From a virus (taxonomy: Duplodnaviria; Heunggongvirae; Uroviricota; Caudoviricetes): a stretch of DNA of 34,477 bases. A program made the position numbers and the translations under genes. The stretch is from IMG/VR virus record IMGVR_UViG_2667527818_000007, one strand, 5' to 3'. Of the stretch, positions 17,400 to 34,477 are shown in pieces; positions within the stretch are counted from its first letter, which is position 1; each line of letters starts with the position of its first letter. The notes below the pieces were generated by a model. The model was not told where the DNA came from. It did no database searches and was given only the letters and a program-made list of their open reading frames with translations.

Positions 17400-17743
17400 C
17401 AGCGCGTTATCTCGGAATGAATCGCAGTGATGGCCTGACTGTCACTGACCTTGAGCATATCAGCCAGAGTATCGGCGATATCCTGCGCACACCAGTCGGC
17501 TCACGGGTGATGCGTCGTGATTACGGCTCGTTGCTGGCGTCAATGATTGACCAGCCGCAGACCCCGGCGCTTGAGTTGCAGATTAAAGTCGCCTGTTACA
17601 TGGCAGTGCTGAAATGGGAACCCCGCGTCACCCTGTCATCCGTCACCACGGCGCGCAGTTTTGACGGGCGAATGACGGTCACGTTAACCGGCCAGCACAA
17701 CGACACCGGCCAGCCACTTTCGTTAACCATCCCTGTGAGTTGA
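17396..17743 (+). CDS. W: baseplate protein gpW (115 aa)
   Basis: Length and order as in P2. Confidence 0.85.
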   Translation: MTARYLGMNRSDGLTVTDLEHISQSIGDILRTPVGSRVMRRDYGSLLASMIDQPQTPALELQIKVACYMAVLKWEPRVTLSSVTTARSFDGRMTVTLTGQHNDTGQPLSLTIPVS

Positions 17744-17747
17744 AACC

Positions 17748-18656: not shown

Positions 18657-19179
18657 TTCGCGACTGCTGCCGACCGGCTCATCACCGCTTGAAGTTGCCG
18701 CCGCAAAAGCCTGTGCGGAAATTGAAAAAACACCGGTCAGTATTCGTGAGCTGTGGAACCCGGACACCTGCCCGGCAAATCTGCTGCCGTGGCTGGCGTG
18801 GGCGTTTTCGGTCGACAGGTGGGATGAAAAGTGGCCGGAAGCGACAAAACGCGCCGTTATCCGCGATGCCTATTTCATCCACTGTCATAAGGGCACGATA
18901 GGTGCAATCCGGCGTGTGGTGGAGCCGCTCGGCTATCTCATCAACGTGACGGAGTGGTGGGAAAACAGTGACCCGCCCGGCACCTTCCGGCTTGATATTG
19001 GTGTACTGGAAAGCGGTATCACAGAGGCAATGTATCAGGAAATGGAACGGCTGATTGCCGATGCCAAACCTGCAAGCCGCCACCTTATTGGCCTGAACAT
19101 TACCCGGGACATTCCCGGCTACCTGTTCGCCGGTGGTGTGGCTTACGACGGCGATGTAATTACGGTTTACCCCGGATAA
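18649..19179 (+). CDS. I: baseplate/tail protein gpI (176 aa)
   Basis: Length and order as in P2. Confidence 0.85.
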   Translation: MSDSRLLPTGSSPLEVAAAKACAEIEKTPVSIRELWNPDTCPANLLPWLAWAFSVDRWDEKWPEATKRAVIRDAYFIHCHKGTIGAIRRVVEPLGYLINVTEWWENSDPPGTFRLDIGVLESGITEAMYQEMERLIADAKPASRHLIGLNITRDIPGYLFAGGVAYDGDVITVYPG

Positions 19180-19189
19180 GTGAGGAATA

Positions 19190-21508
19190 ATGAGCACAAA
19201 ATTCAGAACCGTTATCACCACTGCCGGTGCAGCAAAGCTGGCAGCGGCAACCGCACCGGGAGGGCGGAAGGTCAACATTACCACGATGGCCGTCGGGGAT
19301 GGCGGTGGTAAATTGCCTGTCCCGGATGCCGGACAGACCGGGCTTATCCACGAAGTCTGGCGACATGCGCTGAACAAAATCAGCCAGGACAAACGAAACA
19401 GTAATTATATTATCGCAGAGCTGGTTATTCCGCCGGAGGTGGGCGGTTTCTGGATGCGTGAGCTTGGCCTGTACGATGATGCAGGAACGTTAATTGCCGT
19501 GGCGAACATGGCCGAAAGTTATAAGCCTGCCCTTGCCGAAGGCTCAGGGCGTTCGCAGACCTGCCGCATGGTCATCATCGTCAGCAGTGTGGCCTCAGTG
19601 GAGCTGACTATTGACACCACAACGGTGATGGCAACGCAGGATTACGTTGATGACAAAATTGCAGAGCACGAACAGTCACGACGTCACCCGGACGCCTCTC
19701 TGACCGCAAAAGGTTTTACTCAGCTAAGCAGCGCGACCAACAGCACGTCTGAAACACTGGCCGCAACGCCGAAAGCGGTAAAGGCCGCCTATGACCTTGC
19801 TAACGGGAAATATACTGCGCAGGATGCCACCACGGCGCGAAAAGGCCTTGTTCAGCTCAGTAGTGCGACTAACAGCACGTCTGAAACGCTCGCCGCAACA
19901 CCAAAAGCGGTAAAAGCAGCGTATGACCTTGCTAACGGGAAATATACCGCACAGGACGCCACCACAGCGCGAAAAGGCCTTGTCCAGCTCAGTAGTGCCA
20001 CCAACAGCGATTCTGAAACGCTTGCGGCAACGCCAAAGGCGGTTAAGACAGCGTATGACCTTGCTAACGGGAAATACACTGCACAGGATGCCACCACGGC
20101 GCGGAAAGGCCTTGTCCAGCTCAGTAGTGCCATCAACAGCGATTCTGAGACGCTGGCTGCAACACCAAAAGCGGTGAAGTCTGCCTATGACAATGCTGAA
20201 AAACGTCTTCAGAAAGATCAGAATGGTGCGGATATTCCGGGAAAGGATACCTTCACGAAAAATATCGGTGCCTGTCGTGCTTATAGCGGCGCTTTGAGCA
20301 CTGAAGCCGGAAACTGGACAACCGCTCAGTTTATTGAATGGCTGGATTCCCGTGGTGCATTTAATCATCCGTACTGGATGTGCAAAGGCTCCTGGTCATA
20401 TGCAAATAACAAAATCATTACGGATACCGGATGTGGTGATATCCACCTGGCTGGTTGTGTCGTCGAGGTCATGGGAACAAAATCTGCAATCACTATTCGA
20501 GTGACCACGCCGACAACATCAAGCGGTGGCGGTACAACCAGCGCGCAATTCACTTACATTAATCATGGGGACGGCTACTCCCCCGGCTGGCGTCGTGACT
20601 GGAATCGTCAGGGCGACGCAATGACCGGAACGATTAATCAGGATGGCGGAAGCCAGAATGCCTATATGTCTACGGCCTTATGTTCAGGCACCAGAGGCGG
20701 CAAAAAATATCTCAGAAAGTTTCGTGGTGGAGAAGGAGACACTATCTGGCATGAAACAGTGCAGGGCGGGGTAATTCGCTGGGCGACAGGAAACTATGAC
20801 GCTCAGGAAGAATTATCACTCAGCTCCGCTTATGGTCTCCGTTCTAGAGGTGAAATTACATCACTCAGTGCTAATGGTCTGCGCATTGCTTATGGCAATT
20901 ATGGATTCTTTATCAGGAATGATGGTGGCAGCACATATTTAATGCTGACGGCCTCTGGTGATAAATTTGGGACATGGAACGGTTTAAGGCCGCTGACTAT
21001 CAATAACGCTAATGGCGGAGTGTCAATGGGGCATGGCCTGAGTGTTACTGGTGATATTGCCTCAAGTACCAAAGTACGTGCCGGTAGCGGGAAAAAGTTC
21101 ACGGTCAGCAGCAGAAATACATCCACGAAGGAAGCCGCATTCAATTTGTGGGGAAACTCAAGTCGTCCTGTGGTGGCTGAATTAGGTGATGATGCAGGCT
21201 GGCATTTTTACAGTCAGAGAAATACAGATAACAGCATCACTTTTGCTGTTAACGGGCAGGTATCACCATCTAACTATAGTAATTTTGATTCACGCTATGT
21301 CCGGGATATCCGGCTTGGTGGTGCTGCCACATACAAACCTGCGAACAATGGCATGACATGGACACATCAGGCACCGTCCGGGTGTGTATATTCCGGCATT
21401 ATTGTTCAGGATACCGGCTCAAACTCTGCCGATAACATTGGTGGCATATATTACAGACCGGTGCAGAAATACATTAACGGGACATGGTATAACGTGGCGC
21501 AGGTATAA
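19190..21508 (+). CDS. H: tail fiber protein gpH (772 aa) with internal tandem repeats
   Basis: Conserved N-terminus, then about 3.6 tandem copies of a 41-aa unit and a variable C-terminal receptor-binding region; followed by G. Confidence 0.85.
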   Translation: MSTKFRTVITTAGAAKLAAATAPGGRKVNITTMAVGDGGGKLPVPDAGQTGLIHEVWRHALNKISQDKRNSNYIIAELVIPPEVGGFWMRELGLYDDAGTLIAVANMAESYKPALAEGSGRSQTCRMVIIVSSVASVELTIDTTTVMATQDYVDDKIAEHEQSRRHPDASLTAKGFTQLSSATNSTSETLAATPKAVKAAYDLANGKYTAQDATTARKGLVQLSSATNSTSETLAATPKAVKAAYDLANGKYTAQDATTARKGLVQLSSATNSDSETLAATPKAVKTAYDLANGKYTAQDATTARKGLVQLSSAINSDSETLAATPKAVKSAYDNAEKRLQKDQNGADIPGKDTFTKNIGACRAYSGALSTEAGNWTTAQFIEWLDSRGAFNHPYWMCKGSWSYANNKIITDTGCGDIHLAGCVVEVMGTKSAITIRVTTPTTSSGGGTTSAQFTYINHGDGYSPGWRRDWNRQGDAMTGTINQDGGSQNAYMSTALCSGTRGGKKYLRKFRGGEGDTIWHETVQGGVIRWATGNYDAQEELSLSSAYGLRSRGEITSLSANGLRIAYGNYGFFIRNDGGSTYLMLTASGDKFGTWNGLRPLTINNANGGVSMGHGLSVTGDIASSTKVRAGSGKKFTVSSRNTSTKEAAFNLWGNSSRPVVAELGDDAGWHFYSQRNTDNSITFAVNGQVSPSNYSNFDSRYVRDIRLGGAATYKPANNGMTWTHQAPSGCVYSGIIVQDTGSNSADNIGGIYYRPVQKYINGTWYNVAQV
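19718..20190 (+). repeat. about 3.6 tandem copies of a 123-nt (41-aa) repeat inside H
   Basis: LSSATNS(T/D)SETLAATPKAVKAAYDLANGKYTAQDATTARKGLVQ repeated; nucleotide copies differ mainly at synonymous positions. Confidence 0.85.
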
Positions 21509-21511
21509 TTT

Positions 21512-22036
21512 ATGCAGCATTTGATAAATATAACGGCGGGTAATCCAAAAACAGTTGAACAATATCAATTGACAAAGGGCTTTGATGTTGTCTGGTTTTT
21601 TACAGAAGATGGTAAGAACTGGTACGAAGAACAAAAGTATTTTGCTGATGACACGATAAAAATAGCGTACGACAAAGATAATATTATCCGCTATGTGGAA
21701 AAGGATGTGACAGCTATCAGGCCGGATGGATTAAGTGTTGTTGAAGTGCCGGATATTACTGCTAACCGACGGGCGGACATTTCAGGGGGCTGGATGTTTA
21801 AGGACGGCAAAGTGATTAAACGCATTTATACGGCAGAGGAATTACAACAGCAGGCAGAAATTCGGAAAGCCAGACTTCTTGCAGATGCTGAATCCGTGAT
21901 TTTGCCACTGGAGCGCGCTGTCAGGCTGAATATGGCAACAGATGAGGAGCGCAGCCGACTGGAAGCATGGGAACGCTACAGCGTTCTGGTCAGTCGTGTG
22001 GATCCTACAAATCCTGAATGGCCTGAAATGCCGTAA
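21512..22036 (+). CDS. G: tail fiber assembly chaperone gpG (174 aa)
   Basis: Immediately downstream of H; length close to P2 G. Confidence 0.8.
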
Positions 22037-22261
22037 TAAGTTGTATGAGCTTACATATCTATGGCACAGAGTAAATCCTAATCTGACAGTCCGCTCTGTG
22101 CCAGCTGCGGAAGTTTATAATATGTTTATGGAGTTTGGTGTAAAATCAATTAACTAATTGATTTATATTGATTTTGTTGTGGGGGGTAGCAAAGCATTGT
22201 TTTCAATGCAATATACAGATGAGTAAATTTTACTGCCTAATCTAATAGAGTGTAAGCCACA

Positions 22262-22302
22262 CATAAAAATTAACTATGGCTGATCATTATACAATCAGCC
22301 AT
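22262..22302 (-). terminator. probable intrinsic terminator of the 451-aa cargo gene
   Basis: 9-bp stem atggctgat/atcagccat (22276..22302) followed on the minus strand by a T-rich run, about 10 nt after the stop codon. Confidence 0.5.
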
Positions 22303-22311
22303 AGCTGAGAG

Positions 22312-23667
22312 CTATTTGTCACTAGCCATATCTTTCTTGCATTTTGGACATGGCACCAACATATCTTCTTTCACCAAGTAATAATATGGAATTATTATGC
22401 TATAACCCTGACAAGTTATATGTTCATATGCGATCGTTGGTGTCATATCTTCTTTATCATCGGATTCTATCGGAACCTCCCTAAACATTAATTCAGGTAG
22501 TGGTAAATCCTCTGGGTTATATAATGTCACCATCAATGGTTGTCTTTGGTATGCTTCCTCATTATTTGGAGTTTGACCTGAAGCCAAGTCGATTAACTTA
22601 ACCATATTAATCTGTTCATTGCTAACACAATAATTTACTAATGTATTTAAAGCTTTCTCTTTGAATAAACGATGATATGGACCGTGTGCTTTACAGTTAA
22701 TTAACTCATTAAACATGCCAAAATTAAATTCGTAAGAATAATCTCCAGCAGTTAAAGGTAGTCTATAATAATCACTTATATTTACATTCCCTTTTTGAGT
22801 ATTATTCAACAATGTAATCATTAAATTGTGGAAGTTAACTAAGGAACAACCATCACGATCAGGAAAGCCATGTACAATCATGTCAGTTGCATTAATCATC
22901 CTATCTGAATTATGACTCAGATATTCATTGTTGTTACCAAATAAAAAATAGCCTTTATTTAATATGAAAACTGCATTTGGTAGTAATTTTGTTTCATTAC
23001 TCTGGATTTCTTCCTTAAGAGCAGATACTATATCATCCCAGTGCATTTCTGTTTCATAAGCAAAAACAACTCCAAACCCTGCGAGTGATTTGTTATTTAT
23101 ATAAAATCCATGGTCATTCTTTTTTCTTTGTAGTTTTTTATATGATGCAATGTTTTTTATGGCGCTGCTTAATTCTTTCCTGGTAAGGTTTGATTTTACT
23201 TGAATAACTCCATATACATTTTCAGAAGGGTAAACATCATATATTTCGTTACGCTGCATTAGCACATATCCATCATCTGCATCATATAATGCGATGTCAA
23301 TCTCGTTGCTAAGATGTCCTGTAGCAGCAGCAACTCTTACGCTTCTTGAAGATACAGCATAACGCCCTGGGAATAAACCGCTTAATTTCAAGAAGTTTTT
23401 TAGTATATTTTCTCGAGCATTGCCTAAGTCTCTTGGATGGGATATATCCCTCGTTTTCTCGTATTCAAATTCAATATTTTTTTGAAAGTAATTCAGTTCT
23501 CTGATAATGCCATGAAAATCTCGTTCTTTACTACGAATATCGTTCACATGTTTATTTAAATTTGAAAAATACTCACGTATATTCATTTCCTTTTTATCAA
23601 ACTCTGCACGTCGTTCTTTTTCAGCTTTTGTTATCCGAACTTTCCTAGTTTTTTGTTGCTTAGTCAT
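22312..23667 (-). CDS. hypothetical protein (451 aa), partner of the SIR2-like gene; possible nuclease-like core
   Basis: Intact AT-rich ORF in the G-FI hotspot; charged Lys/Arg/Glu-rich N-terminus; weak PD-(D/E)xK-like pattern (IDIALYD...GVIQVKS, aa about 124-158); C-terminal Cys cluster (...CQGY...CPKC). Function not established. Confidence 0.55.
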   Translation of the reverse strand: MTKQQKTRKVRITKAEKERRAEFDKKEMNIREYFSNLNKHVNDIRSKERDFHGIIRELNYFQKNIEFEYEKTRDISHPRDLGNARENILKNFLKLSGLFPGRYAVSSRSVRVAAATGHLSNEIDIALYDADDGYVLMQRNEIYDVYPSENVYGVIQVKSNLTRKELSSAIKNIASYKKLQRKKNDHGFYINNKSLAGFGVVFAYETEMHWDDIVSALKEEIQSNETKLLPNAVFILNKGYFLFGNNNEYLSHNSDRMINATDMIVHGFPDRDGCSLVNFHNLMITLLNNTQKGNVNISDYYRLPLTAGDYSYEFNFGMFNELINCKAHGPYHRLFKEKALNTLVNYCVSNEQINMVKLIDLASGQTPNNEEAYQRQPLMVTLYNPEDLPLPELMFREVPIESDDKEDMTPTIAYEHITCQGYSIIIPYYYLVKEDMLVPCPKCKKDMASDK

Positions 23668-24141
23668 TATATATTAACCCTATTAATAAGCGTATAAGTA
23701 AAGAAGATCGTATCATATCAAATACTATCAAATTCTGAGAGCAGTTTTTATAATAGTCAATCATATAGAAAGTAAAATCCTCGTGCTCAGCCTAAATATC
23801 TGCGCCGAATATCACTACATTTTTCCAGACCACTCTTCCCCTAACCTCCGCTCCTTGCTCAGCGCGGACCTTCTGTCCAGTGAGGTAGTCCGCTACGAGC
23901 AAGAAGTGGACCATGTTGTACTAATTATTAGAGAGTAAATCATTATGTATCGGATTGAATCTTGACTCACAGGTGGCACAATGTTTTCATATTGTAATTT
24001 GTGTATATATGCAGATGGTTACAGTTTCAACTATGTTTTTGTAATTTTAAAAATAGAATTTATTGTTTGTTTATTGATGTGTTTGTATTAAAGAATTCAT
24101 TTTATAGCCCTCTATAGAGGGCTCTACAAAGATAGTCAGTA

Positions 24142-25656
24142 TTATTGTGACGAGTACCGTTTAAAATCATATAAGCTAACAAGTCTTTTATAATCTGAGG
24201 ATGATATTTCAAGGGTAACTCCTTCCCTCAAATATCCTTCGATATTATCAAGGTCAATATTGTTTACATATGTGTTGTAAAAAATAACTCGAACGAGTTT
24301 GTACGGTTTGAATCCGAGGGAAATGATTTCATCCACTGTGTCGCAGTTAATTCTTTCAGATTCATCAATAGAATTAAAATAGGTGGTAAGATTTGTTTCC
24401 TGATTATTTTTAAGTTGCTCAATATTTTGTATTTCATTACATATTGTGGAAAATCCATGCGCTGTAAAATACTGTGTTCGGGTTACTTTTATTTTATTTA
24501 ATAGCATGATTAGCGCATCATTTTTGGAGTCCATGATTTCAAAATAATTCATAACCATTTCGGATGCTGATTGATAATGGTAAGTTATTTTCTGCACAGA
24601 TCCAACAGCCATGACTAGTTCGTCATTAGCTAAGTTATCTAAATCACCAACTATTTTCACTTTAACAGTACCGCCTTCTTTTATTTTTCTCATTACTCCT
24701 TCAACCTTTCTAATATCCATAGATGATACTGGAAGTTTAAGGTTTATTAACCCCTCGAAAATCCCTTGAAAATTATCGGTTTTAATCTTGTTGATTTTAA
24801 TATTACCAATATTTTCGATAACCACATCATGTTCAAGCACTTCAAGGGAGTTGTTGTCTGCGTCTCGTTCAATAAGCAGAAAATTCTTTCTAACCTTATC
24901 GGCTAAATCGGAATCTTTAGGAATATAAGAAAAAATAGTTTTCAGAATCTCTCTGATATTCTCATCGCTTATGCTATAGCCGATAAATATAATAGGATTG
25001 TGAATGAATAAAGAAATGAGCTGGGCTCTAATTAAGTGATTATTGATTTTAAATCTTTCATAATCGGAATCTGAAATCACAATAGATTCAGGATGTGAAA
25101 CACAACCGTGTATTTTATATACAGATCCGTAAGGGTTACTTAGCAGAATATCATTCCCAATGATTGGATTAAACCCAATCAATGTCTCAATGAATCTATC
25201 ATAATTCGTTGTAATAACTGAGCCTATATTTCGACTTGCTTTTGCAAATAATTCCATTTCTGTTGCATACTTATCATCATCATTTATTTGATGTAGATCT
25301 ACAAGTTCAGATATAAATATTTTCATGCGACTGGCAGAGTAGTTTCCTGAAGCAGCATACTCGTAGTATTTGTCATTTATTCTTTTAAACTTACCGTTCC
25401 TATCAGCTTCTAATAATCTATTGAACTCTGTTTCAATTTCGCTAGCTACTTTTGGTAGATCAATTTCACCTAAAGAATTAGCGTTCCTGCCTGCGGAGTC
25501 AAAATAAAAGTCATGACTCCCTTTCATTTCGTAAACAATCTTTTTTAGAAGTTCTGACCATGAGTAAGTGCCTACCAGGTATCTCCGGCTAAACCCTGCA
25601 CCAACAAACACTACTGGATGGTTTACATAAGATTCCATGAATTCACTAATATTCAT
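24142..25656 (-). CDS. SIR2-like (sirtuin-fold) protein (504 aa) with an uncharacterised C-terminal domain; candidate NAD+-consuming defence effector
   Basis: Sirtuin-family signature order in the N-terminal half: VFVGAGFS (GAGxS, aa 19-23), TTNYD (aa 149-153), KIHG (aa 181-184). The C-terminal half of about 250 aa is not Gly-rich and not recognised. SD ggagaagg upstream of the ATG. Confidence 0.7.
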   Translation of the reverse strand: MNISEFMESYVNHPVVFVGAGFSRRYLVGTYSWSELLKKIVYEMKGSHDFYFDSAGRNANSLGEIDLPKVASEIETEFNRLLEADRNGKFKRINDKYYEYAASGNYSASRMKIFISELVDLHQINDDDKYATEMELFAKASRNIGSVITTNYDRFIETLIGFNPIIGNDILLSNPYGSVYKIHGCVSHPESIVISDSDYERFKINNHLIRAQLISLFIHNPIIFIGYSISDENIREILKTIFSYIPKDSDLADKVRKNFLLIERDADNNSLEVLEHDVVIENIGNIKINKIKTDNFQGIFEGLINLKLPVSSMDIRKVEGVMRKIKEGGTVKVKIVGDLDNLANDELVMAVGSVQKITYHYQSASEMVMNYFEIMDSKNDALIMLLNKIKVTRTQYFTAHGFSTICNEIQNIEQLKNNQETNLTTYFNSIDESERINCDTVDEIISLGFKPYKLVRVIFYNTYVNNIDLDNIEGYLREGVTLEISSSDYKRLVSLYDFKRYSSQ

Positions 25657-26118
25657 TTATCCTTCTCCATAACAGGAATATTTATAGCTGATAAAGCATA
25701 CAGCATCTTTGATGAAGATGCCTTCAATTTTGTTCACTCATCATCCTATTCTACCTGTTTCATGACACAACAAGCCCAGAACAGCAGTATGTATGCCATT
25801 GGGGGAGCATATGGATTCAATTAAGTTACGGTCAGAATATCTTACATTCATCCAAAGTGAGGCAATATATATAATTTAGCAAATTAACATTGTCACCACT
25901 GCCAGTTAGGGTTATGGGAATAAACAAGGCCTACAGGGATTCTTAGCAACTGTACCCACAGATCGTTGATAATAATCCTCTCAGTTGATTATTTTTCCTC
26001 AGATCACTGAGAAATACAGGCTATTTCCGCTTTACGCTCAAAGCAGACTGTCAGATTTGTTAGCGTTTGGGCTATGTAAATTGTCAGTTGGAAAATGAGT
26101 GAGTGCAAATCATGACAG

Positions 26119-26144
26119 GCAGGCGGATTACCCGCCTTTTCTTT
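26119..26144 (+). terminator. putative plus-strand intrinsic terminator upstream of the FI late promoter
   Basis: aggcgg-attac-ccgcct followed by ttttcttt; short GC stem plus U-run. Confidence 0.35.
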
Positions 26145-26240
26145 GTCTGTTGTTTCATCCACTGACCAGCTAGGTCAAATAGCGTCTCATGCACTGCACA
26201 ACAGAAAATAGTTGCACCCATTAACCACGGAGTTAAACGG

Positions 26241-27431
26241 ATGAGTGACTATCATCATGGCGTGCAGGTGCTGGAGATTAACGACGGCACCCGCGTCATT
26301 TCCACCGTATCCACCGCCATTGTCGGCATGGTCTGCACGGCCAGCGATGCGGATGCGGAAACCTTCCCCCTCAATAAACCGGTGCTGATTACCAATGTGC
26401 AGAGCGCAATTGCAAAGGCCGGTAAAAAAGGCACGCTGGCGGCATCGTTGCAGGCTATCGCTGACCAGTCAAAACCGGTCACCGTTGTCGTGCGTGTGGA
26501 AGACGGCAGCGGCGACGACGAGGAAACGAAACTCGCGCAGACCGTTTCCAATATCATCGGCACCACCGACGAAAACGGTCAGTACACCGGACTGAAAGCC
26601 CTGCTGGCGGCGGAGTCGGTAACCGGTGTTAAACCGCGCATTCTCGGTGTGCCGGGACTGGACACCAAAGAGGTTGCCGTCGCACTGGCATCAGTCTGTC
26701 AGAAGCTGCGCGCTTTCGGGTATATCAGCGCATGGGGCTGTAAAACCATTTCCGAGGTGAAAGCCTACCGCCAGAATTTCAGCCAGCGTGAGCTGATGGT
26801 CATCTGGCCGGATTTCCTCGCATGGGATACGGTCACCAGTACCACCGCCACCGCGTATGCCACCGCCCGTGCGCTGGGTCTGCGCGCTAAAATCGACCAG
26901 GAGCAGGGCTGGCATAAAACGCTGTCCAATGTCGGGGTGAACGGTGTTACCGGCATCAGCGCCTCTGTATTCTGGGATTTGCAGGAGTCCGGCACTGATG
27001 CTGACCTGCTTAACGAGTCAGGCATCACAACGCTGATTCGCCGCGACGGTTTCCGCTTCTGGGGTAACCGTACCTGCTCCGATGACCCGCTGTTCCTCTT
27101 TGAAAACTACACCCGCACCGCGCAGGTGCTGGCCGACACGATGGCTGAGGCGCACATGTGGGCGGTGGACAAGCCTATCACCGCAACGCTGATTCGCGAC
27201 ATCGTTGACGGCATCAATGCCAAATTCCGTGAGCTGAAAACAAACGGCTATATCGTGGATGCGACCTGCTGGTTCAGCGAAGAATCCAACGATGCGGAAA
27301 CCCTCAAGGCCGGAAAACTGTATATCGACTACGACTATACACCGGTGCCTCCTCTTGAAAACCTGACCCTGCGCCAGCGTATTACCGATAAATACCTGGC
27401 AAATCTGGTCACCTCGGTTAACAGCAATTAA
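26241..27431 (+). CDS. FI: tail sheath protein gpFI (396 aa)
   Basis: Same length and order as P2 FI. Confidence 0.9.
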   Translation: MSDYHHGVQVLEINDGTRVISTVSTAIVGMVCTASDADAETFPLNKPVLITNVQSAIAKAGKKGTLAASLQAIADQSKPVTVVVRVEDGSGDDEETKLAQTVSNIIGTTDENGQYTGLKALLAAESVTGVKPRILGVPGLDTKEVAVALASVCQKLRAFGYISAWGCKTISEVKAYRQNFSQRELMVIWPDFLAWDTVTSTTATAYATARALGLRAKIDQEQGWHKTLSNVGVNGVTGISASVFWDLQESGTDADLLNESGITTLIRRDGFRFWGNRTCSDDPLFLFENYTRTAQVLADTMAEAHMWAVDKPITATLIRDIVDGINAKFRELKTNGYIVDATCWFSEESNDAETLKAGKLYIDYDYTPVPPLENLTLRQRITDKYLANLVTSVNSN

Positions 27432-27443
27432 GGAGCCTGACCG

Positions 27444-27962
27444 ATGGCAATGCCGCGAAAACTCAAGTTAATGAACGTCTTTCTGAACGGCTACAGCTAT
27501 CAGGGCGTCGCGAAGTCCGTCACGCTGCCAAAACTGACCCGTAAGCTCGAAAACTATCGAGGTGCGGGGATGAACGGCAGCGCACCGGTAGACCTCGGCC
27601 TTGATGACGATGCGCTGTCAATGGAGTGGTCGCTCGGGGGCTTCCCGGATTCGGTTATCTGGGAGCTTTACGCCGCAACCGGTGTGGATGCCGTACCGAT
27701 TCGTTTTGCTGGCTCTTACCAGCGCGACGATACCGGCGAAACGGTGGCCGTCGAAGTGGTCATGCGTGGCCGTCAGAAAGAAATCGACACCGGCGAGGGT
27801 AAACAGGGAGAAGACACCGAGTCGAAAATCTCCGTGGTCTGCACTTATTTCCGGCTGACGATGGACGGTAAGGAGCTGGTCGAAATCGACACCATCAACA
27901 TGATTGAGAAGGTGAACGGCGTCGACCGGCTGGAGCAACACCGCCGCAATATCGGCCTGTGA
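27444..27962 (+). CDS. FII: tail tube protein gpFII (172 aa)
   Basis: Same length and order as P2 FII. Confidence 0.9.
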   Translation: MAMPRKLKLMNVFLNGYSYQGVAKSVTLPKLTRKLENYRGAGMNGSAPVDLGLDDDALSMEWSLGGFPDSVIWELYAATGVDAVPIRFAGSYQRDDTGETVAVEVVMRGRQKEIDTGEGKQGEDTESKISVVCTYFRLTMDGKELVEIDTINMIEKVNGVDRLEQHRRNIGL

Positions 27963-28018
27963 TTTTCATCCGGTCAGCCAGGCTGACCGGTTAACCCCGA
28001 TTCAGAAGTGAGAAAACC

Positions 28019-28294
28019 ATGAACAAAGAAAATGTCATTACCCTGGACAATCCGGTCAAACGTGGTGAGCAGGTTATCGAACAGGTCACGCTGATGAAAC
28101 CCAGTGCCGGGACGCTGCGCGGTGTCAGTCTGGCTGCGGTCGCAAACTCAGAAGTCGATGCACTGATTAAGGTGCTGCCGCGCATGACGGCACCGATGCT
28201 GACCGAGCAGGAAGTCGCCGCACTGGAACTGCCTGACCTTGTGGCGCTGGCCGGTAAGGTGGTCGGTTTTTTGTCGCCGAACTCGGTGCAGTGA
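28019..28294 (+). CDS. E: tail assembly chaperone gpE (91 aa)
   Basis: Same length as P2 E; ends just after the slippery run ggt ttt ttg. Confidence 0.8.
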   Translation: MNKENVITLDNPVKRGEQVIEQVTLMKPSAGTLRGVSLAAVANSEVDALIKVLPRMTAPMLTEQEVAALELPDLVALAGKVVGFLSPNSVQ

Positions 28295-28446
28295 CGTTTC
28301 CGAAAAATCTGTCGGTCGATGACCTGATGGCGGATGTGGCAGTGATATTTCACTGGCCGCCATCAGAACTGTATCCCATGAGCCTGACCGAACTCATCAC
28401 ATGGCGCGAAAAGGCGCTCCGGCGAAGCGGAAACACGAATGAGTAA
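28019..28446 (+). CDS. gpE+E' extended chaperone produced by programmed -1 frameshift
   Basis: Slippery heptamer t-ttt-ttg at 28267..28273; the -1 frame is open from 28273 to the TAA at 28444..28446, overlapping the T start (28439). Confidence 0.65.
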
Positions 28447-30886
28447 CAATGTAAAATTACAGGTATTGCTCAGGGCTGTTGACCAGGCATCCCGCCCGTT
28501 TAAATCCATCCGCACAGCGAGCAAATCGCTGTCGGGGGATATCCGGGAAACACAAAAATCACTGCGCGAGCTGAACGGTCACGCATCCCGTATTGAGGGA
28601 TTTCGCAAGACCAGCGCACAGCTTGCCGTGACTGGTCATGCACTTGAAAAGGCACGGCAGGAAGCCGAAGCCCTTGCCACACAGTTTAAAAACACTGAAC
28701 GTCCGACCCGTGCTCAGGCGAAAGTGCTGGAATCCGCAAAGCGTGCGGCGGAGGACTTACAGGCGAAATATAACCGCCTGACAGATTCCATTAAACGCCA
28801 GCAGCGGGAACTGGCCGCTGTGGGAATTAATACCCGCAATCTTGCACATGATGAGCAGGGACTGAAAAACCGTATCAGTGAAACCACCGCACAGCTTAAC
28901 CGTCAGCGTGACGCGCTGGCGCGTGTTAGTGCACAACAGGCAAAACTTAACGCAGTAAAACAGCGTTATCAGGCCGGAAAGGAACTGGCCGGAAATATGG
29001 CCTCAGTGGGCGCTGCCGGTGTGGGGATTGCTGCTGCGGGAACGATGGCCGGAGTTAAGCTGCTGATGCCCGGTTATGAGTTTGCGCAGAAAAACTCAGA
29101 ATTGCAGGCTGTGCTCGGTGTGGCAAAAGACTCCGCCGAAATGGCTGCACTACGCAAGCAGGCGCGCCAGCTCGGCGACAATACCGCAGCCTCGGCAGAT
29201 GATGCAGCCGGTGCGCAGATTATTATTGCGAAAGCCGGTGGGGATGTTGATGCCATTCAGGCGGCAACGCCGGTCACGCTGAATATGGCGCTGGCGAACC
29301 GTCGCACGATGGAAGAAAACGCCGCCCTGCTGATGGGGATGAAATCCGCCTTTCAGCTTTCAAACGATAAGGTCGCTCATATCGGGGATATTCTCTCCAT
29401 GACGATGAACAAAACCGCCGCCGATTTTGATGGCATGAGCGATGCGCTGACCTATGCCGCACCTGTGGCAAAAAATGCTGGTGTCAGCATTGAAGAAACC
29501 GCCGCAATGGTCGGGGCGCTGCATGATGCAAAAATTACCGGTTCAATGGCGGGGACGGGAAGCCGTGCCGTGTTAAGTCGCCTGCAGGCACCGACGGGAA
29601 AAGCATGGGATGCACTGAAAGAGCTTGGCGTGAAAACCTCAGACAGTAAAGGGAATACTCGACCAGTATTTACCATTCTGAAAGAAATGCAGGCCAGTTT
29701 TGAGAAAAACCGGCTCGGTACTGCCCAGCAGGCTGAATACATGAAAACCATTTTCGGGGAGGAGGCCAGCTCAGCCGCCGCCGTGCTGATGACTGCCGCC
29801 TCAACCGGAAAGCTGGACAAACTGACCGCTGCGTTTAAAGCCTCAGACGGAAAGACCGCAGAGCTGGTAAATATCATGCAGGACAACCTCGGTGGTGACT
29901 TTAAGGAGTTTCAGTCCGCTTATGAGGCGGTGGGGACTGACCTGTTTGACCAGCAGGAAGGCGCACTGCGTAAGCTCACGCAGACGGCCACAAAGTATGT
30001 GTTAAAACTCGACGGCTGGATACAGAAAAACAAATCACTGGCGTCAACCATCGGCATCATTGTCGGTGGTGCACTGGCGCTGACTGGTGTCATCGGTGCC
30101 ATTGGCCTCGTAGCCTGGCCGGTTATCACCGGCATTAATGCCATCATCGCGGCAGCAGGCGCAATGGGTGCAATCTTCACGACGGTTGGCAGTGCCGTTA
30201 TGACGGCCATCGGGGCGATTAGCTGGCCGGTTGTGGCTGTGGTGGCCGCCATTGTCGCCGGGGCGTTGCTTATCCGTAAATACTGGGAGCCTGTCAGCGC
30301 ATTCTTTGGCGGTGTGGTTGAAGGGCTGAAAGCGGCATTTGCGCCGGTGAGGGAGCTGTTCACGCCACTGAAACCGGTGTTTGACTGGCTGGGCGAAAAG
30401 TTACAGGCCGCGTGGCAGTGGTTTAAAAATCTGATTGCCCCGGTTAAAGCCACACAGGACACCCTGAACCGTTGCCGTGACACGGGGGTCATGTTCGGGC
30501 AGGCACTGGCTGACGCGCTGATGCTGCCGCTTAATGCGTTCAACAAACTGCGCAGCGGTATTGACTGGGTACTGGAAAAACTCGGGGTTATCAACAAAGA
30601 GTCAGACACACTTGACCAGACCGCCGCCAGAACTCATGCCGCCACGTATGGCACCGGTGGTTATATTCCGGCGACCAGCTCTTATGCAGGTTATCAGGCT
30701 TATCAGCCGGTTACGGCACCGGCTGGCCGCTCTTATGTGGACCAGAGTAAAAACGAATATCACATCAGCCTGACGGGTGGTACTGCGCCGGGGACACAGC
30801 TTGACCGCCAGTTACAGGATGCGCTCGAAAAATACGAGCGGGATAAACGTGCGCGCGCCCGTGCCAGCATGATGCATGACGGTTAA
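28439..30886 (+). CDS. T: tail tape measure protein gpT (815 aa)
   Basis: Same length as P2 T; Ala/Gly-rich with hydrophobic central segments. Confidence 0.9.
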   Translation: MSNNVKLQVLLRAVDQASRPFKSIRTASKSLSGDIRETQKSLRELNGHASRIEGFRKTSAQLAVTGHALEKARQEAEALATQFKNTERPTRAQAKVLESAKRAAEDLQAKYNRLTDSIKRQQRELAAVGINTRNLAHDEQGLKNRISETTAQLNRQRDALARVSAQQAKLNAVKQRYQAGKELAGNMASVGAAGVGIAAAGTMAGVKLLMPGYEFAQKNSELQAVLGVAKDSAEMAALRKQARQLGDNTAASADDAAGAQIIIAKAGGDVDAIQAATPVTLNMALANRRTMEENAALLMGMKSAFQLSNDKVAHIGDILSMTMNKTAADFDGMSDALTYAAPVAKNAGVSIEETAAMVGALHDAKITGSMAGTGSRAVLSRLQAPTGKAWDALKELGVKTSDSKGNTRPVFTILKEMQASFEKNRLGTAQQAEYMKTIFGEEASSAAAVLMTAASTGKLDKLTAAFKASDGKTAELVNIMQDNLGGDFKEFQSAYEAVGTDLFDQQEGALRKLTQTATKYVLKLDGWIQKNKSLASTIGIIVGGALALTGVIGAIGLVAWPVITGINAIIAAAGAMGAIFTTVGSAVMTAIGAISWPVVAVVAAIVAGALLIRKYWEPVSAFFGGVVEGLKAAFAPVRELFTPLKPVFDWLGEKLQAAWQWFKNLIAPVKATQDTLNRCRDTGVMFGQALADALMLPLNAFNKLRSGIDWVLEKLGVINKESDTLDQTAARTHAATYGTGGYIPATSSYAGYQAYQPVTAPAGRSYVDQSKNEYHISLTGGTAPGTQLDRQLQDALEKYERDKRARARASMMHDG

Positions 30887-30900
30887 GGAGGTGACGAAAA

Positions 30901-31380
30901 ATGATGCTCGCGTTAGGTATGTTTGTTTTTATGCGCCAGACGCTGCCACACCAGACCATGCAGCGTGAATCAGATTATCGCTGGCCGTCAAATTCCCGTA
31001 TCGGCAAACGGGATGCCTTTCAATTTCTCGGTGTGGGTGAGGAAAACATCACGCTTGCCGGTGTGCTTTATCCCGAACTGACCGGCGGAAAGCTGACGAT
31101 GACCACGCTCAGGCTGATGGCTGAGGAAGGCCGGGCGTGGCCGTTGCTGGATGGCACTGGCATGATTTACGGCATGTATGTCATCAGCAAGGTGAGTGAA
31201 ACAGGGAGTATTTTCTTTGCAGACGGCACACCCCGAAAAATTGATTTTACGCTGTCGCTCACCCGCGTTGATGAATCACTGGCCGCGCTGTATGGCGATA
31301 TCGGTAAACAGGCGGAATCGCTCATCGGTAAGGCTGGCAGTATGGCGACCAGATTCACGGGTATGACGGGGGCGGGATAA
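30901..31380 (+). CDS. U: tail protein gpU (159 aa)
   Basis: Length and order as in P2. Confidence 0.85.
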   Translation: MMLALGMFVFMRQTLPHQTMQRESDYRWPSNSRIGKRDAFQFLGVGEENITLAGVLYPELTGGKLTMTTLRLMAEEGRAWPLLDGTGMIYGMYVISKVSETGSIFFADGTPRKIDFTLSLTRVDESLAALYGDIGKQAESLIGKAGSMATRFTGMTGAG

Positions 31381-32543
31381 TGTTGGATGCGCTGACATTT
31401 GATGCAGGCAGTACGCTGACGCCGGATTACATGCTGATGCTCGACAGCAGGGATATTACCGGCAATATCAGCGACCGTCTGATGAGCATGACCCTGACGG
31501 ATAACCGGGGCTTTGAGGCTGACCAGCTTGATATTGAACTGAACGATGCCGACGGGCAGGTCGGGCTGCCGGTTCGTGGCGCTGTCCTGACGGTGTATAT
31601 CGGCTGGAAAGGTTTTGCCCTGGTATGCAAAGGGAAATTTACCGTTGATGAGGTTGAACACCGGGGCGCGCCGGATGTGGTCACCATCCGCGCCCGGAGT
31701 GCAGATTTTCGCGGGACGCTCAATTCCCGCCGGGAAGGCTCCTGGCATGACACCACACTCGGTGCGATTGTTGAGGCGATAGCCTCCCGTAACAAGCTGG
31801 AGGCCAGTGTCGCTCCGTCACTGGCCGGAATTAAAATCCCGCACATCGACCAGTCGCAGGAGTCTGATGCGAAATTCCTGACCCGTCTTGCAGAACGCAA
31901 CGGCGGTGAGGTGTCGGTAAAAATGGGAAAACTGTTGTTTCTCAAAGCGGGGCAGGGGGTGACGGCCAGCGGTAAAAAAATCCCGCAGGTCACCATCACC
32001 CGCAGCGACGGCGACCGTCATCATTTTGCGATTGCTGACCGTGGAGCCTATACCGGCGTTACGGCAAAGTGGTTACACACCAAAGACCCGAAGCCGCAAA
32101 AGCAGAAGGTAAAACTGAAACGCAAAAAGAAAGAGAAACACCTGCGCGCACTGGAGCACCCGAAAGCGAAACCGGTCACGCAGAAGAAAGAGCCAAAAGT
32201 ACCGGAAGCGCGCGAAGGTGAATACATGGCCGGTGAGGCTGACAACGTTTTTGCCCTGACCACGGTATATGCCACGAAAGCACAGGCCATGCGCGCCGCT
32301 CAGGCGAAGTGGGATAAACTGCAACGGGGTGTTGCGGAGTTCTCCATCAGCCTGGCTACTGGTCGGGCAGATATTTACACGGAAACACCGGTTAAAGTGT
32401 CAGGCTTTAAGCGCGTCATAGACGAGCAGGACTGGACCATCACTAAGGTGACACATTGTCTCAATAATAGCGGCTTCACGACGTCCTTGGAGCTTGAGGT
32501 AAGGCTTTCTGATGTGGAGTACGAAACAGAAGATGATGAGTGA
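31380..32543 (+). CDS. D: tail protein gpD (387 aa)
   Basis: Length and order as in P2; Lys-rich insert near aa 230-260. Confidence 0.85.
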   Translation: MLDALTFDAGSTLTPDYMLMLDSRDITGNISDRLMSMTLTDNRGFEADQLDIELNDADGQVGLPVRGAVLTVYIGWKGFALVCKGKFTVDEVEHRGAPDVVTIRARSADFRGTLNSRREGSWHDTTLGAIVEAIASRNKLEASVAPSLAGIKIPHIDQSQESDAKFLTRLAERNGGEVSVKMGKLLFLKAGQGVTASGKKIPQVTITRSDGDRHHFAIADRGAYTGVTAKWLHTKDPKPQKQKVKLKRKKKEKHLRALEHPKAKPVTQKKEPKVPEAREGEYMAGEADNVFALTTVYATKAQAMRAAQAKWDKLQRGVAEFSISLATGRADIYTETPVKVSGFKRVIDEQDWTITKVTHCLNNSGFTTSLELEVRLSDVEYETEDDE

Positions 32544-32624
32544 TGCGGTTTATTTATCTGTTTGTTTTATAAGGGTAAATTAACTAAAATGGCACCATCA
32601 ACAAAACCGGAAGAGGTGCTCGCG

Positions 32625-32843
32625 ATGTTTCATTGTCCTTTATGCCAGCATGCCGCACATGCGCGTACAAGTCGCTATATCACTGACACGACAAAAGAGC
32701 GTTATCACCAGTGCCAGAACGTGAATTGCAGCGCCACGTTCATCACTTATGAGTCGGTACAGCGATACATCGTAAAGCCGGGAGAAGTCCACGCCGTAAG
32801 GCCGCACCCGTTACCGTCAGGGCAGCAAATTATGTGGATGTAA
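32625..32843 (+). CDS. ogr: late-gene transcription activator Ogr (72 aa, zinc finger)
   Basis: MFHCPLCQHAAHARTSRYIT...CQNVNCSATF: Cys-x2-Cys...Cys-x4-Cys zinc finger; 72 aa from the ATG at 32625, as in P2 Ogr; the tracked ORF is a 5' extension. Confidence 0.85.
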   Translation: MFHCPLCQHAAHARTSRYITDTTKERYHQCQNVNCSATFITYESVQRYIVKPGEVHAVRPHPLPSGQQIMWM

Positions 32844-32854
32844 TTACAAACAGA

Positions 32855-32880
32855 AAGCCCCTCAGCCGAGGGGCTTTTTT
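32855..32880 (+). terminator. intrinsic terminator after ogr
   Basis: aagcccctc-agcc-gaggggctt followed by tttttt. Confidence 0.8.
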
Positions 32881-32943
32881 GTCGATGTGGTCAATGTGTG
32901 GACGTGACCAGAAATAAATCCTTTTATTTCATTGAATTACGCG

Positions 32944-33021
32944 TAAAAAATAAGCCCGTGTAAGGGAGATTACACAGGCTAAGGAGGTGGTTCCTGGTAC
33001 AGCTAGCATTTTATGGGTTAT
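32944..33021 (-). ncRNA. cyaR: CyaR (RyeE) Hfq-dependent sRNA
   Basis: Minus strand reads gctgaaaaacataacccataaaatgctagctgtaccaggaaccacctccttagcctgtgtaatctcccttacacgggcttatttttt, matching my recollection of CyaR including the CCACCUCCUU seed-like motif and the terminator hairpin. Confidence 0.8.
32945..32971. repeat. attR core: second copy of the 27-bp att repeat; overlaps the cyaR terminator hairpin
   Basis: Exact match to 478..504. Confidence 0.85.
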
Positions 33022-33115
33022 GTTTTTCAGCGAAACGGATGATAACCTTAATAAATGCAGCTGTATGTGATCGGTTTCTAAGAATTTTCCATCCGGGAAA
33101 AATAATCGAAATTAA

Positions 33116-34477
33116 TCACTTACCGTGTGGGTTACGCGTGGTTTCCCCGGAGAAATTACGCATCAGCAGAGCGTAATTGAGCTCAAGATCCTGCGGGACC
33201 GGGAGCCACACAGTATAACCATCGCCTGGTGCGACCGGCATCGCTTCACCTTTGGCGTTTTCCATGTGCTCAAGGGTAAAGTTAATGTTGCCTTGCGGCG
33301 TCATCAGCTCAAGGCTGTCGCCAACGGAGAATTTATTTTTCACCGCTACCGCCGCGAGGTCCCCCTTGCGCTCACCGGTAAACTCACCAACAAACTGCTG
33401 GCGGTCAGAAACTGAATAACCGTATTCGTAGTTCTGATAATCGTCGTGAGTATGACGACGCAGGAAACCTTCGGTATAGCCACGATGCGCCAGACCTTCC
33501 AGAGTTTCCAGCAGGCTGGTATCGAACGGTTTGCCCGCAGCGGCGTCATCGATAGCTTTACGGTAAACCTGTGCGGTGCGTGCGCAATAGTAGAAAGATT
33601 TAGTACGGCCTTCGATTTTCAGCGAATGCACGCCCATTTTGGTCAGGCGTTCTACATGGGCGATGGCGCGCAGATCTTTCGAGTTCATGATGTAAGTGCC
33701 GTGCTCATCTTCAAACGCGGTCATATACTCGCCCGGACGCTGGGCTTCTTCGATCATAAACACTTTGTCGGTTGGCGCGCCGATACCCAGCGTCGGCTCA
33801 ACATTTTGCACCGGAATCGGCTCGTACTTGTGTACGATGTTGCCAACGTCATCTTCTTTCCCTTCCTGGACGTTGTACTCCCAGCGGCAGGCGTTGGTGC
33901 AGGTACCCTGGTTCGGATCGCGCTTGTTGATATAGCCAGAGAGCAGGCAGCGACCGGAGTAGGCCATGCACAGTGCGCCGTGAACGAAGATCTCGATCTC
34001 CATATCCGGCACCTGATTGCGGATCTCTTCAATCTCTTCCAGCGACAGCTCGCGAGAGAGGATCACGCGGGTCAGGCCCATTTGCTGCCAGAATTTCACC
34101 GTCGCCCAGTTTACGGCGTTAGCCTGCACCGAGAGGTGGATCGGCATTTCAGGGAAGTGCTCACGCACCAGCATAATCAGCCCTGGATCGGACATAATCA
34201 GCGCATCCGGCCCCATTTCCACCACCGGTTTCAGGTCACGGATAAAGGTTTTCAGCTTGGCGTTGTGCGGTGCAATGTTGACCACGACATAAAACTTTTT
34301 CCCCAGCGCGTGGGCTTCATTGATGCCGAGCTGAAGATTTTCGTGGTTGAATTCGTTGTTGCGCACACGCAGGGAGTAACGCGGCTGGCCCGCATAAACA
34401 GCATCTGCGCCATAAGCGAAAGCGTAACGCATATTTTTCAGCGTTCCCGCCGGGGAAAGGAGTTCCGGTTTAAACAT
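33116..34477 (-). CDS. yegQ: peptidase U32-family protein YegQ (453 aa; tRNA hydroxylation-associated)
   Basis: Complete 453-aa ORF beginning MFKPELLSPAGTLKNMRYAFAYGADAVYAGQPRYSLRV...; recognised as the U32 peptidase-family host gene next to cyaR. Confidence 0.8.
   Translation of the reverse strand: MFKPELLSPAGTLKNMRYAFAYGADAVYAGQPRYSLRVRNNEFNHENLQLGINEAHALGKKFYVVVNIAPHNAKLKTFIRDLKPVVEMGPDALIMSDPGLIMLVREHFPEMPIHLSVQANAVNWATVKFWQQMGLTRVILSRELSLEEIEEIRNQVPDMEIEIFVHGALCMAYSGRCLLSGYINKRDPNQGTCTNACRWEYNVQEGKEDDVGNIVHKYEPIPVQNVEPTLGIGAPTDKVFMIEEAQRPGEYMTAFEDEHGTYIMNSKDLRAIAHVERLTKMGVHSLKIEGRTKSFYYCARTAQVYRKAIDDAAAGKPFDTSLLETLEGLAHRGYTEGFLRRHTHDDYQNYEYGYSVSDRQQFVGEFTGERKGDLAAVAVKNKFSVGDSLELMTPQGNINFTLEHMENAKGEAMPVAPGDGYTVWLPVPQDLELNYALLMRNFSGETTRNPHGK

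What the first reader, a model, noticed from the sequence alone, without database searches (positions are those of the whole stretch)
32944..33021. Prophage integrated into the 3' terminator of the sRNA gene cyaR; the att core regenerates the sRNA 3' end
The 27-bp att core (32945..32971) is the terminator hairpin and U-tail of CyaR on the minus strand. Integration therefore replaces the sRNA 3' end with phage-derived but identical sequence, and a second copy of the terminator segment sits at attL (478..504) with no sRNA body attached. This fixes the prophage boundaries at 478..32971.
Basis: partly seen in the sequence, partly recalled or inferred. Interest (0 to 1): 0.5.

Follow-up and report, generated by a model that had tools for sequence, protein, structure and literature searches.

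The report
P2 prophage inserted at cyaR end
A complete P2-type prophage sits at the classic P2 attachment site of E. coli, which overlaps the last 27 bases of the small RNA gene cyaR, and the insertion leaves the RNA sequence unchanged; this is a correct reading of a site already described in the literature.

Summary
AAAAAATAAGCCCGTGTAAGGGAGATT occurs exactly twice (478-504, 32945-32971). It is identical to the attP core annotated in phage P2, and it brackets a 32,467-bp Peduovirus about 97% identical to P2. Joining the two phage ends rebuilds P2 attP as one contiguous piece. Joining the two host flanks rebuilds, at 100% identity over 1,133 bp, the yegR-cyaR-yegQ region of prophage-free E. coli. 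Rfam places CyaR at 32948-33033 on the minus strand (100.7 bits).

Three corrections apply:
- The core holds the loop, the 3' arm and the U-tail of the terminator, but only 2 nt of the 5' arm. The other 9 nt are host DNA.
- The attL copy cannot fold as a terminator.
- One core copy belongs to the host, so the phage genome is 32,467 bp.

The site is already known. cyaR/ryeE is listed as a P2 insertion site in the E. coli W genome paper and in Bobay et al. 2013. The same attL junction is present in 812 of 5,426 complete E. coli genomes.

One side observation may be new. The "host" flank of prophage-free E. coli keeps a degenerate P2 P arm, so the empty site looks like the scar of an older integration.

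The parts
1..318 (+). yegR, the host gene on the left flank
   Evidence: The ORF is. The identical stretch is annotated as yegR in RefSeq genomes.
430..464 (.). Degenerate P2-type P arm ('fossil') inside the host flank. It is also present in prophage-free E. coli.
   Evidence: family D8 and the alignment. In one search the local alignment to the phage P arm scores 38 against 14.7 +/- 2.1 for shuffles (z = 10.9, 0 of 1000), and includes a 15-nt exact run, TCGATGTGGTCAATG.
478..504 (+). attL core. This is the displaced copy of the CyaR loop, 3' arm and U-tail, with no sRNA body attached.
   Evidence: It does not fold as a terminator (-4.2 kcal/mol, z = +0.62). No terminator-like site was found in 250-700.
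505..32944 (.). Body of the P2-type (Peduovirus) prophage. The phage genome is 32,467 bp including one core copy.
   Evidence: 79-82% of 478-24000 is covered at about 97% identity by P2, P24C9, P22H1 and phage 10W. The ORF order follows P2.
584..1597 (-). int, a P2-type tyrosine integrase of 337 aa
   Evidence: Pfam Int_N (1.3e-24) and Phage_integrase (8.7e-22). The region is annotated int in P2.
592..618 (.). P' arm Int-binding repeats (TGTGGACA x2), placed by position transfer from the P2 annotation
   Evidence: The P2 record annotates the 'Int P' arm' 88-114 nt beyond the core. The sequence is visible.
22312..25656 (-). Non-P2 cargo between tail genes G and FI: a PD-DExK/DUF6602 nuclease-like protein (22312-23667) and a SIR2-like protein (24142-25656)
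   Evidence: PADLOC PDC-S25 at 1.9e-144 and PD_DExK at 1.7e-24. Pfam SIR2_2 and DUF6602.
32625..32843 (+). ogr, the late-gene activator and last phage gene before attR
   Evidence: Pfam Ogr_Delta at 1.1e-21. Annotated ogr in P2.
32854..32877 (.). ogr / F-operon terminator hairpin. It lies between cyaR read-through and the phage late genes.
   Evidence: The P2 annotation reads 'rho-independent terminator for ogr transcript and F operon'. The hairpin was detected.
32882..32946 (.). P arm: Int arm-type sites (about 32882-32909) and the IHF site (about 32913-32946), placed by position transfer from P2
   Evidence: P2 annotates the Int P arm and IHF sites 63-36 nt and 32-0 nt before the core. Alignment A1.
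32945..32971 (+). attR core. It forms the 3' end of the intact cyaR gene.
32945..33033 (-). cyaR (ryeE) sRNA gene. Terminator: 5' arm 32980-32970, loop 32969-32964, 3' arm 32963-32953, tail 32952-32945.
   Evidence: Rfam RF00112 at 100.7 bits. The fold gives -15.9 kcal/mol for the terminator, z = -5.6. Covariation across 93 Enterobacterales sequences shows 98.5% of cells paired and 8 of 11 pairs compensatory.
33116..34477 (-). yegQ, the host gene on the right flank
   Evidence: Pfam Peptidase_U32 at 5e-89. Annotated yegQ in RefSeq. yegQ is adjacent to cyaR in 113 of 120 loci.

Best explanation
A complete P2-type temperate phage (Peduovirus) has integrated by Int-mediated site-specific recombination at the primary P2 attachment site of E. 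coli (locI), which lies between yegR and yegQ. The attP core and the attB site are the same 27 bp. On the host side these 27 bp are the loop, the 3' stem arm and the U-tail of the Rho-independent terminator of the sRNA gene cyaR. Recombination within this identity duplicates the 27 bp. The copy at attR stays joined to the cyaR body and to the 5' stem arm, which is host DNA, so CyaR keeps its sequence and its terminator. The copy at attL is joined to the phage P' arm and the int end, and it is not a terminator.

Shown here: the repeat, the junctions, the identity of the phage, and the position and structure of the sRNA. Inferred: that Int, IHF and Cox act as they do in P2; where in the core the strands cross; and that CyaR output is unchanged.
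For: - The 27-bp repeat is exact, unique, and absent from shuffles.
- It is identical to the annotated attP core of P2, which is flanked there by the Int P arm, IHF, Cox and Int P' arm sites.
- The reconstructed attP is one contiguous piece at 98.6-99.6% identity in P2, P22H1, P24C9 and phages 9W and 10W.
- The reconstructed empty site is one piece at 100% identity over 1,133 bp in ATCC 8739, BLR(DE3), ML35 and others. 4,565 of 5,426 genomes have it with at most a short insert.
- Homology breakpoints fall exactly at the core edges, window 504 and 32945.
- The prophage is about 97% identical to P2 with P2 gene order. Int and Ogr are confirmed by Pfam.
- CyaR scores 100.7 bits in Rfam. The terminator fold is, and the helix is supported by covariation.
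- The literature already lists cyaR/ryeE as a P2 or phage target: PMC3032704 Table 2 and PMC3603311.
- In other genera, P2-type arms and Ogr/D/U genes follow the local variant of the CyaR terminator (L098, L112).
Against: Nothing found contradicts it. The limits are these. No experiment shows that this prophage can excise or that CyaR levels are unaffected. The U-run is 6 at attR and 7 in this strain's empty-site configuration, and the sequence past the terminator changes, so 'unchanged' holds for the 27 bp but not for the context. The crossover point within the core cannot be read from identical sequences.
Confidence: 0.97

Rival explanations
1. The element is only a defective remnant, like the ogr-D' fragment of K-12, and not a complete prophage.
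For: K-12-type genomes carry exactly such a remnant at this site. 1,219 genomes have the attR junction but only 812 have the attL junction, so remnants are common.
Against: Both junctions are intact here. The interval is 32.5 kb, with ORFs of P2-like length for int, C, cox, B, A, Q, P, O, N, M, L, the lysis genes, the tail genes, T, U, D and ogr, at about 97% identity to P2. Intactness of every gene and of cos was not checked base by base.
Confidence: 0.05
2. The 27-bp repeat is a coincidence or a generic terminator motif, and the element entered by another route such as transposition or homologous recombination.
For: None, beyond the fact that terminator-like sequences are common.
Against: None of 100 shuffles gives a match. 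Both breakpoints are exact against empty sites and against free phage genomes. P2's own record annotates the core as attP.
Confidence: 0.005
3. Integration is not neutral for CyaR. Changing the U-run from 7 to 6 and replacing the downstream DNA alters termination efficiency or Hfq binding, and read-through from the CRP-activated cyaR promoter runs antisense towards ogr.
For: The CyaR terminator is leaky (41% read-through in a double-terminator assay), and Hfq binding depends on a long poly(U) tail (PMC9765468). The attR tail is UAUUUUUU followed by A, whereas the empty site has one more U. cyaR and ogr converge and are separated by about 70 nt and one hairpin.
Against: K-12, the strain used for the CyaR termination assays (PMC9765468), has the same attR junction with a 6-U run, and CyaR is functional there. 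Some empty E. coli sites also have 6 U (L066). The ogr terminator hairpin lies in the path of read-through. No expression data exist for this strain.
Confidence: 0.12

Closest known systems
Phage P2 at its primary E. coli attachment site (locI); named examples at this locus are Wphi2 in E. coli W, P2*B in E. coli B and the ogr-D' remnant in K-12
   Same: The 27-bp core is the same. The attP architecture is the same (P arm, IHF, core, Cox, P' arm). The host locus (yegR-cyaR-yegQ) and the orientation are the same, with ogr next to cyaR and int next to yegR.
   Different: About 3% nucleotide divergence from P2. The cargo at the variable regions differs: a SIR2-like protein plus a PD-DExK nuclease between G and FI, where my own recollection is that P2 carries Z/fun; a nearly empty region between A and Q; and a tail-fibre gene H lengthened by a 132-bp tandem repeat.
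Prophage integration into the 3' end of tRNA or tmRNA genes with regeneration of the gene (for example phage 186 in tRNA-Ile, and Fels-2 and SopE-phi in ssrA)
   Same: The att core overlaps the 3' part of a structured RNA gene, and the phage carries a copy that restores it. PMC3448106 describes this logic for 186-type phages.
   Different: The target here is an Hfq-dependent sRNA, and the duplicated part is half of an intrinsic terminator, not an acceptor or T arm. PMC3448106 noted that P2-type integrases are mostly found 'between other genes'. Here the intergenic site is in fact an sRNA gene.
Other sRNA genes used as prophage sites: rybB (the P2-like Rybb* elements) in E. coli, and ryeB/sdsR in Salmonella
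   Same: A conserved sRNA locus serves as a recurrent phage attachment site (PMC3032704 Table 2; PMC3603311; PMC3333887).
   Different: The sRNAs and cores differ. These loci were not examined here.

Membership tests
P2-type (Peduovirus) prophage at the P2 primary attachment site | Core sequence identical to the P2 attP core | tested here: met
   27 of 27 bases identical to AF063097 24356-24382, annotated attP.
P2-type (Peduovirus) prophage at the P2 primary attachment site | Joining the prophage ends restores a contiguous attP with P arm, IHF, core, Cox and P' arm next to int and ogr | tested here: met
   One piece, 100% coverage, 98.6-99.6% identity in ten phage records. The features are annotated in P2.
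P2-type (Peduovirus) prophage at the P2 primary attachment site | Joining the host flanks restores a naturally occurring empty site with one core copy | tested here: met
   1,133 bp, one piece, 100% identity in many genomes. Breakpoints are at window 504 and 32945.
P2-type (Peduovirus) prophage at the P2 primary attachment site | P2 gene content and order, tyrosine integrase, Ogr zinc-finger activator | tested here: met
P2-type (Peduovirus) prophage at the P2 primary attachment site | Able to excise, replicate and form particles | not testable with these tools
   Requires culture work.
CyaR/RyeE sRNA (Rfam RF00112) | Covariance-model score above the gathering threshold over the full model | tested here: met
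   100.7 bits against 47, model positions 1-85 of 85.
CyaR/RyeE sRNA (Rfam RF00112) | Conserved position next to yegQ | tested here: met
   yegQ lies 83 nt upstream in the window. It is adjacent in 113 of 120 loci.
CyaR/RyeE sRNA (Rfam RF00112) | Rho-independent terminator with a U-tail at the 3' end, supported by covariation | tested here: met
   In one search, 98.5% of cells are paired, 8 of 11 pairs have compensatory changes, and slid controls give 18-47%.
CyaR/RyeE sRNA (Rfam RF00112) | cAMP-CRP-dependent promoter and Hfq-dependent expression | not tested
   The simple sigma-70 scan found no promoter in 32800-33200, which fits an activator-dependent promoter but does not show one. The upstream host DNA is identical to empty-site strains.
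att sites that regenerate the 3' end of an RNA gene | The core overlaps the RNA 3' end, and the gene sequence after integration equals the sequence before integration | tested here: met
   The core lies at 32945-32971 inside cyaR (32945-33033). The window from the core through cyaR to 33600 (32945-33600) is identical to the empty site.

The most novel reading that the evidence does not exclude
The prophage-free E. coli attachment site may itself be the scar of a much older P2-like integration. The 'host' DNA just past the core (window 430-464) is homologous to the Int arm-binding part of the P2 P arm, and that stretch is matched in 5,291 of 5,426 complete genomes. If so, the 3' half of the CyaR terminator in E. 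coli has been phage-supplied since early in the species. The site then shows up to three generations of use: the fossil arm, the K-12 ogr-D' remnant, and the intact prophage seen here. The surviving arm-type site next to attB might also contribute to P2's preference for this site.
Probability: 0.5. Interest if true: 0.35.

Novelty: already known. Interest (0 to 1): 0.15.

Why it matters
For annotation, it fixes the prophage boundaries to the base and shows that cyaR is intact in the lysogen. It also explains why cyaR is flanked by ogrK in K-12.

Biologically it is a clear example of a known rule: temperate phages target the conserved 3' ends of structured RNA genes and carry a replacement copy. 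The particular feature here is that the replaced part is one half of a covarying terminator stem, so the phage core has to stay complementary to a host-encoded 5' arm.

None of this is new for P2 and E. coli. The cross-genus survey and the fossil arm add modest evolutionary detail.

Tried and rejected
- **Chimeric terminator idea.** I considered that the U-G wobble in the E. coli CyaR stem (5' arm GCCUGUGU against 3' arm ACACGGGC) marks a terminator with a phage-derived 3' arm. I rejected it as evidence because the same wobble, or others, occur in Klebsiella, Enterobacter and Pseudescherichia loci that have no phage arm.
- **Independent phage origin for the host flank.** I searched for a phage that carries the flank 319-477. 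The only hits were prophage-junction records that include host DNA (Phage TP AY639599; ON470606 just past its integrase).
- **Primary literature.** I tried to read De Lay & Gottesman 2009, Papenfort 2008, Wassarman 2001 and Barreiro & Haggard-Ljungquist 1992. None is held, so prior knowledge is cited through secondary papers.
- **Promoter scan.** The simple scan found no cyaR promoter, which is uninformative for a CRP-dependent promoter.
- **Other RNA genes.** There is no tRNA or tmRNA in the window, and no other Rfam family reaches its gathering score.

Full report
**1. The observation**

The 27-mer AAAAAATAAGCCCGTGTAAGGGAGATT occurs exactly twice in the 34,477-bp window, at 478-504 and 32945-32971. 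Both copies are on the + strand. There are no other matches even with three mismatches allowed, and none of 100 dinucleotide-preserving shuffles gave a match (family D15).

**2. The sRNA**

Rfam RF00112 (CyaR_RyeE) matches 32948-33033 on the minus strand over the whole model, at 100.7 bits against a gathering score of 47. The 3' part folds into an 11-bp stem with a 6-nt loop (minus strand 32980-32953, -15.9 kcal/mol, z = -5.6). The stem is followed by UAUUUUUU.

I collected 120 loci from one representative genome per species that carry the CyaR seed. 113 of them have yegQ adjacent. On 93 distinct sequences the terminator helix is paired in 98.5% of cells. Eight of its 11 pairs show changes on both sides. 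Sliding the 3' partner by 1-3 columns drops pairing to 18-47%. The hairpin is therefore the selected 3' structure of CyaR.

**3. How the core maps onto the terminator**

Read on the CyaR strand, the core contains:
- the last two bases of the 5' arm (32971-32970);
- the loop (32969-32964);
- the full 3' arm (32963-32953);
- the tail (32952-32945).

The other nine bases of the 5' arm (32980-32972) are outside the core and remain host DNA.

A consequence is that the attL copy has no 5' arm to pair with and does not fold as a terminator (-4.2 kcal/mol, z = +0.62). No terminator-like site was found in 250-700.

**4. Identity of the element**

The interval between the repeats is a Peduovirus. 79-82% of 478-24000 aligns at about 97% identity to P2, P24C9, P22H1 and phage 10W. 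The ORF order is that of P2. The 337-aa protein at 584-1597 (minus strand) is a tyrosine integrase, and the protein at 32625-32843 is Ogr.

The P2 GenBank record annotates a 27-bp attP at 24356-24382. That feature aligns base for base with the repeat. It is flanked there by the Int P arm, IHF, Cox and Int P' arm sites.

**5. The two junction tests**

- Joining the right end of the prophage to its left end (32560-32971 plus 505-1000) gives a sequence that is one contiguous piece, with 100% coverage and 98.6-99.6% identity, in ten free-phage records including P2 itself.
- Joining the host flanks with one core copy (1-504 plus 32972-33600) gives a 1,133-bp sequence. It is present as one piece at 100% identity in ATCC 8739, BLR(DE3), ML35 and many other chromosomes, where it is annotated yegR and yegQ.

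Junction-specific queries confirm the breakpoints. Genomes without the prophage match the attL query only up to window 504. They match the attR query only from window 32945, with a few extending 8 nt further by chance similarity.

The phage genome is 32,467 bp, because 478..32971 counts the core twice.

**6. How common and how well known**

The full attL junction is present in 812 of 5,426 complete E. coli genomes (15%). The full attR junction is present in 1,219 (22%). The excess reflects remnants such as the K-12 ogr-D' fragment.

Prior descriptions of the site:
- The E. coli W genome paper lists "cyaR RNA" as an insertion site, with Wphi2 (P2) in W, ogr-D' in K-12, P2*B in B and nothing in Crooks (PMC3032704).
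- Bobay et al. state that ryeE in E. coli was [quoted passage not shown] (PMC3603311).
- The 1992 paper that sequenced the P2 attachment sites and found the K-12 remnant is cited in PMC3091744.

The primary papers are not held in the library. The finding is therefore correct but already known.

**7. Mechanism**

*Shown.* The phage and host sites share 27 identical bp. The recombinant junctions are exactly those expected from reciprocal exchange within that identity. cyaR at attR has the same sequence as in the empty site.

*Inferred from P2 biology.* Int binds the core and the arm sites, IHF bends the P arm, and Cox directs excision.

*Unknown.* The position of strand exchange within the core is not known. 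So how many of the 27 bp at attR are physically of phage origin is also not known.

**8. Is integration strictly neutral for CyaR?**

Identity ends with the core. This strain's empty-site configuration has seven A at 477-483, which gives a 7-U run. attR has six A and then T at 32944.

The CyaR terminator is leaky (41% read-through in a double-terminator assay), and Hfq needs a long poly(U) tail (PMC9765468). A small effect is therefore conceivable, and read-through would run antisense towards ogr.

Three points argue against a significant effect:
- K-12, the strain used for those CyaR termination assays, has the same attR junction.
- Another empty E. coli site also has six U (L066).
- The ogr terminator hairpin lies in the path of read-through.

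I rate a measurable effect at about 0.12.

**9. Cross-genus view**

The exact P2 core occurs as the CyaR 3' end only in E. coli, one Enterobacter hormaechei genome and three Kluyvera genomes among the species sampled. Other genera differ at 1-9 positions, mostly as compensated stem changes.

P2-type P arms nevertheless follow the local CyaR terminator in several other lineages:

| Locus | Organism | What follows cyaR |
|---|---|---|
| L098 | Citrobacter youngae | P arm, with Ogr and D |
| L112 | Enterobacteriaceae G50 | P arm, with Ogr, D and U |
| L035 | Citrobacter sp. | P arm |
| L052 | 'Bacterium BS0013' | P arm |
| L077 | Buttiauxella MAG | P arm |
| L087 | Enterobacter sp. | P arm |
| L116 | E. 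albertii | P arm |

The phage core thus tracks the host's terminator, as it must if the 3' arm it supplies is to pair with a host 5' arm.

**10. Side observation: a fossil arm**

The host flank just left of attL (430-464), which is also present in prophage-free strains, aligns to the Int arm-binding part of the P2 P arm. The alignment includes a 15-nt exact run. It scores 38 against 14.7 +/- 2.1 for shuffles (z = 10.9, 0 of 1000).

For comparison:
- a second E. coli gives z = 7.9;
- Salmonella diarizonae gives z = 6.3;
- ten control loci, from nine other genera and a cryptic Escherichia lineage, give z between -1.0 and 1.8;
- true prophage arms give z of 20-31.

The fossil lies 15 nt closer to the core than the real arm does. 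The query stretch 385-504, which contains it, is matched in 5,291 of 5,426 genomes. The most economical reading is that the "empty" E. coli site is the scar of an older P2-like attR.

K-12 then shows three layers: the fossil arm; a partial attL core fused by deletion to the interior of gene D (the junction is after window 495/496); and the ogr-P arm-core-cyaR junction. I could not establish whether this has been noted before.

**11. Verdict**

The novelty class is "already known" and interest is low (0.15). The most novel reading still open is the scar hypothesis: probability about 0.5, modest interest.

Noticed in passing
window 430-464 (also L002 and L066): The 'host' flank next to the core, present in prophage-free E. 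coli, is homologous to the P2 P arm Int-binding region (z = 10.9 against shuffles). It lies 15 nt nearer the core than a real arm does. It looks like the scar of an older P2-like integration.
   Followed up: partly
L003 1440-1540 (K-12-type strain PD007), aligned to window 440-540 and 32290-32390: The left edge of the K-12 ogr-D' remnant is a deletion that joins the attL core, after ...CGTGTA (window 495/496), to the interior of gene D, at a GTGT microhomology. The older fossil arm is retained to its left.
   Followed up: yes
window 22312-25656, minus strand: The non-P2 cargo between tail genes G and FI consists of a 504-aa SIR2-like protein (PADLOC candidate system PDC-S25, 1.9e-144) and a 451-aa PD-DExK/DUF6602 nuclease-like protein. 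It probably occupies a P2 anti-phage defence hotspot.
   Followed up: partly
window 19721-20191: A 132-bp tandem repeat (3.6 copies, 87% matches) lies inside the tail-fibre gene H (19190-21508). It gives a 772-aa product, longer than P2 H as I recall it (about 669 aa).
   Followed up: no
window 6433-7522: The region between gene A and gene Q, where to my knowledge P2 carries orf91, tin and old, is only about 1.1 kb here. It holds a single 88-aa ORF (6735-7001, minus strand) with no Pfam or PADLOC match.
   Followed up: partly
L077 6779-6868 (Buttiauxella MAG): The CyaR terminator has a C-A mismatch (5' arm ...GCGC, 3' arm GCAC...) directly next to a P2-type P arm. This may be a case where the phage-supplied 3' arm does not perfectly regenerate the stem. 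Mismatches also occur in loci without arms, so this is only anecdotal.
   Followed up: no
window 466-490 (also in empty sites): GGGCTTAT...ATAAGCCC forms an 8-bp inverted repeat that spans the host flank and the outer part of the core. It exists at attB and attL but not at attR, and it appears in the minimum-free-energy fold of 455-585. Its significance is unknown.
   Followed up: no
L098, L112, L035, L052, L087, L116: P2-type P arms, with Ogr, D and U in L098 and L112, follow the local variant of the CyaR terminator in Citrobacter, Enterobacter, E. albertii and unnamed Enterobacteriaceae. The 3' end of cyaR is therefore a P2-like attachment site across several genera, with cores that differ from the E. 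coli core at 1-3 positions.
   Followed up: partly
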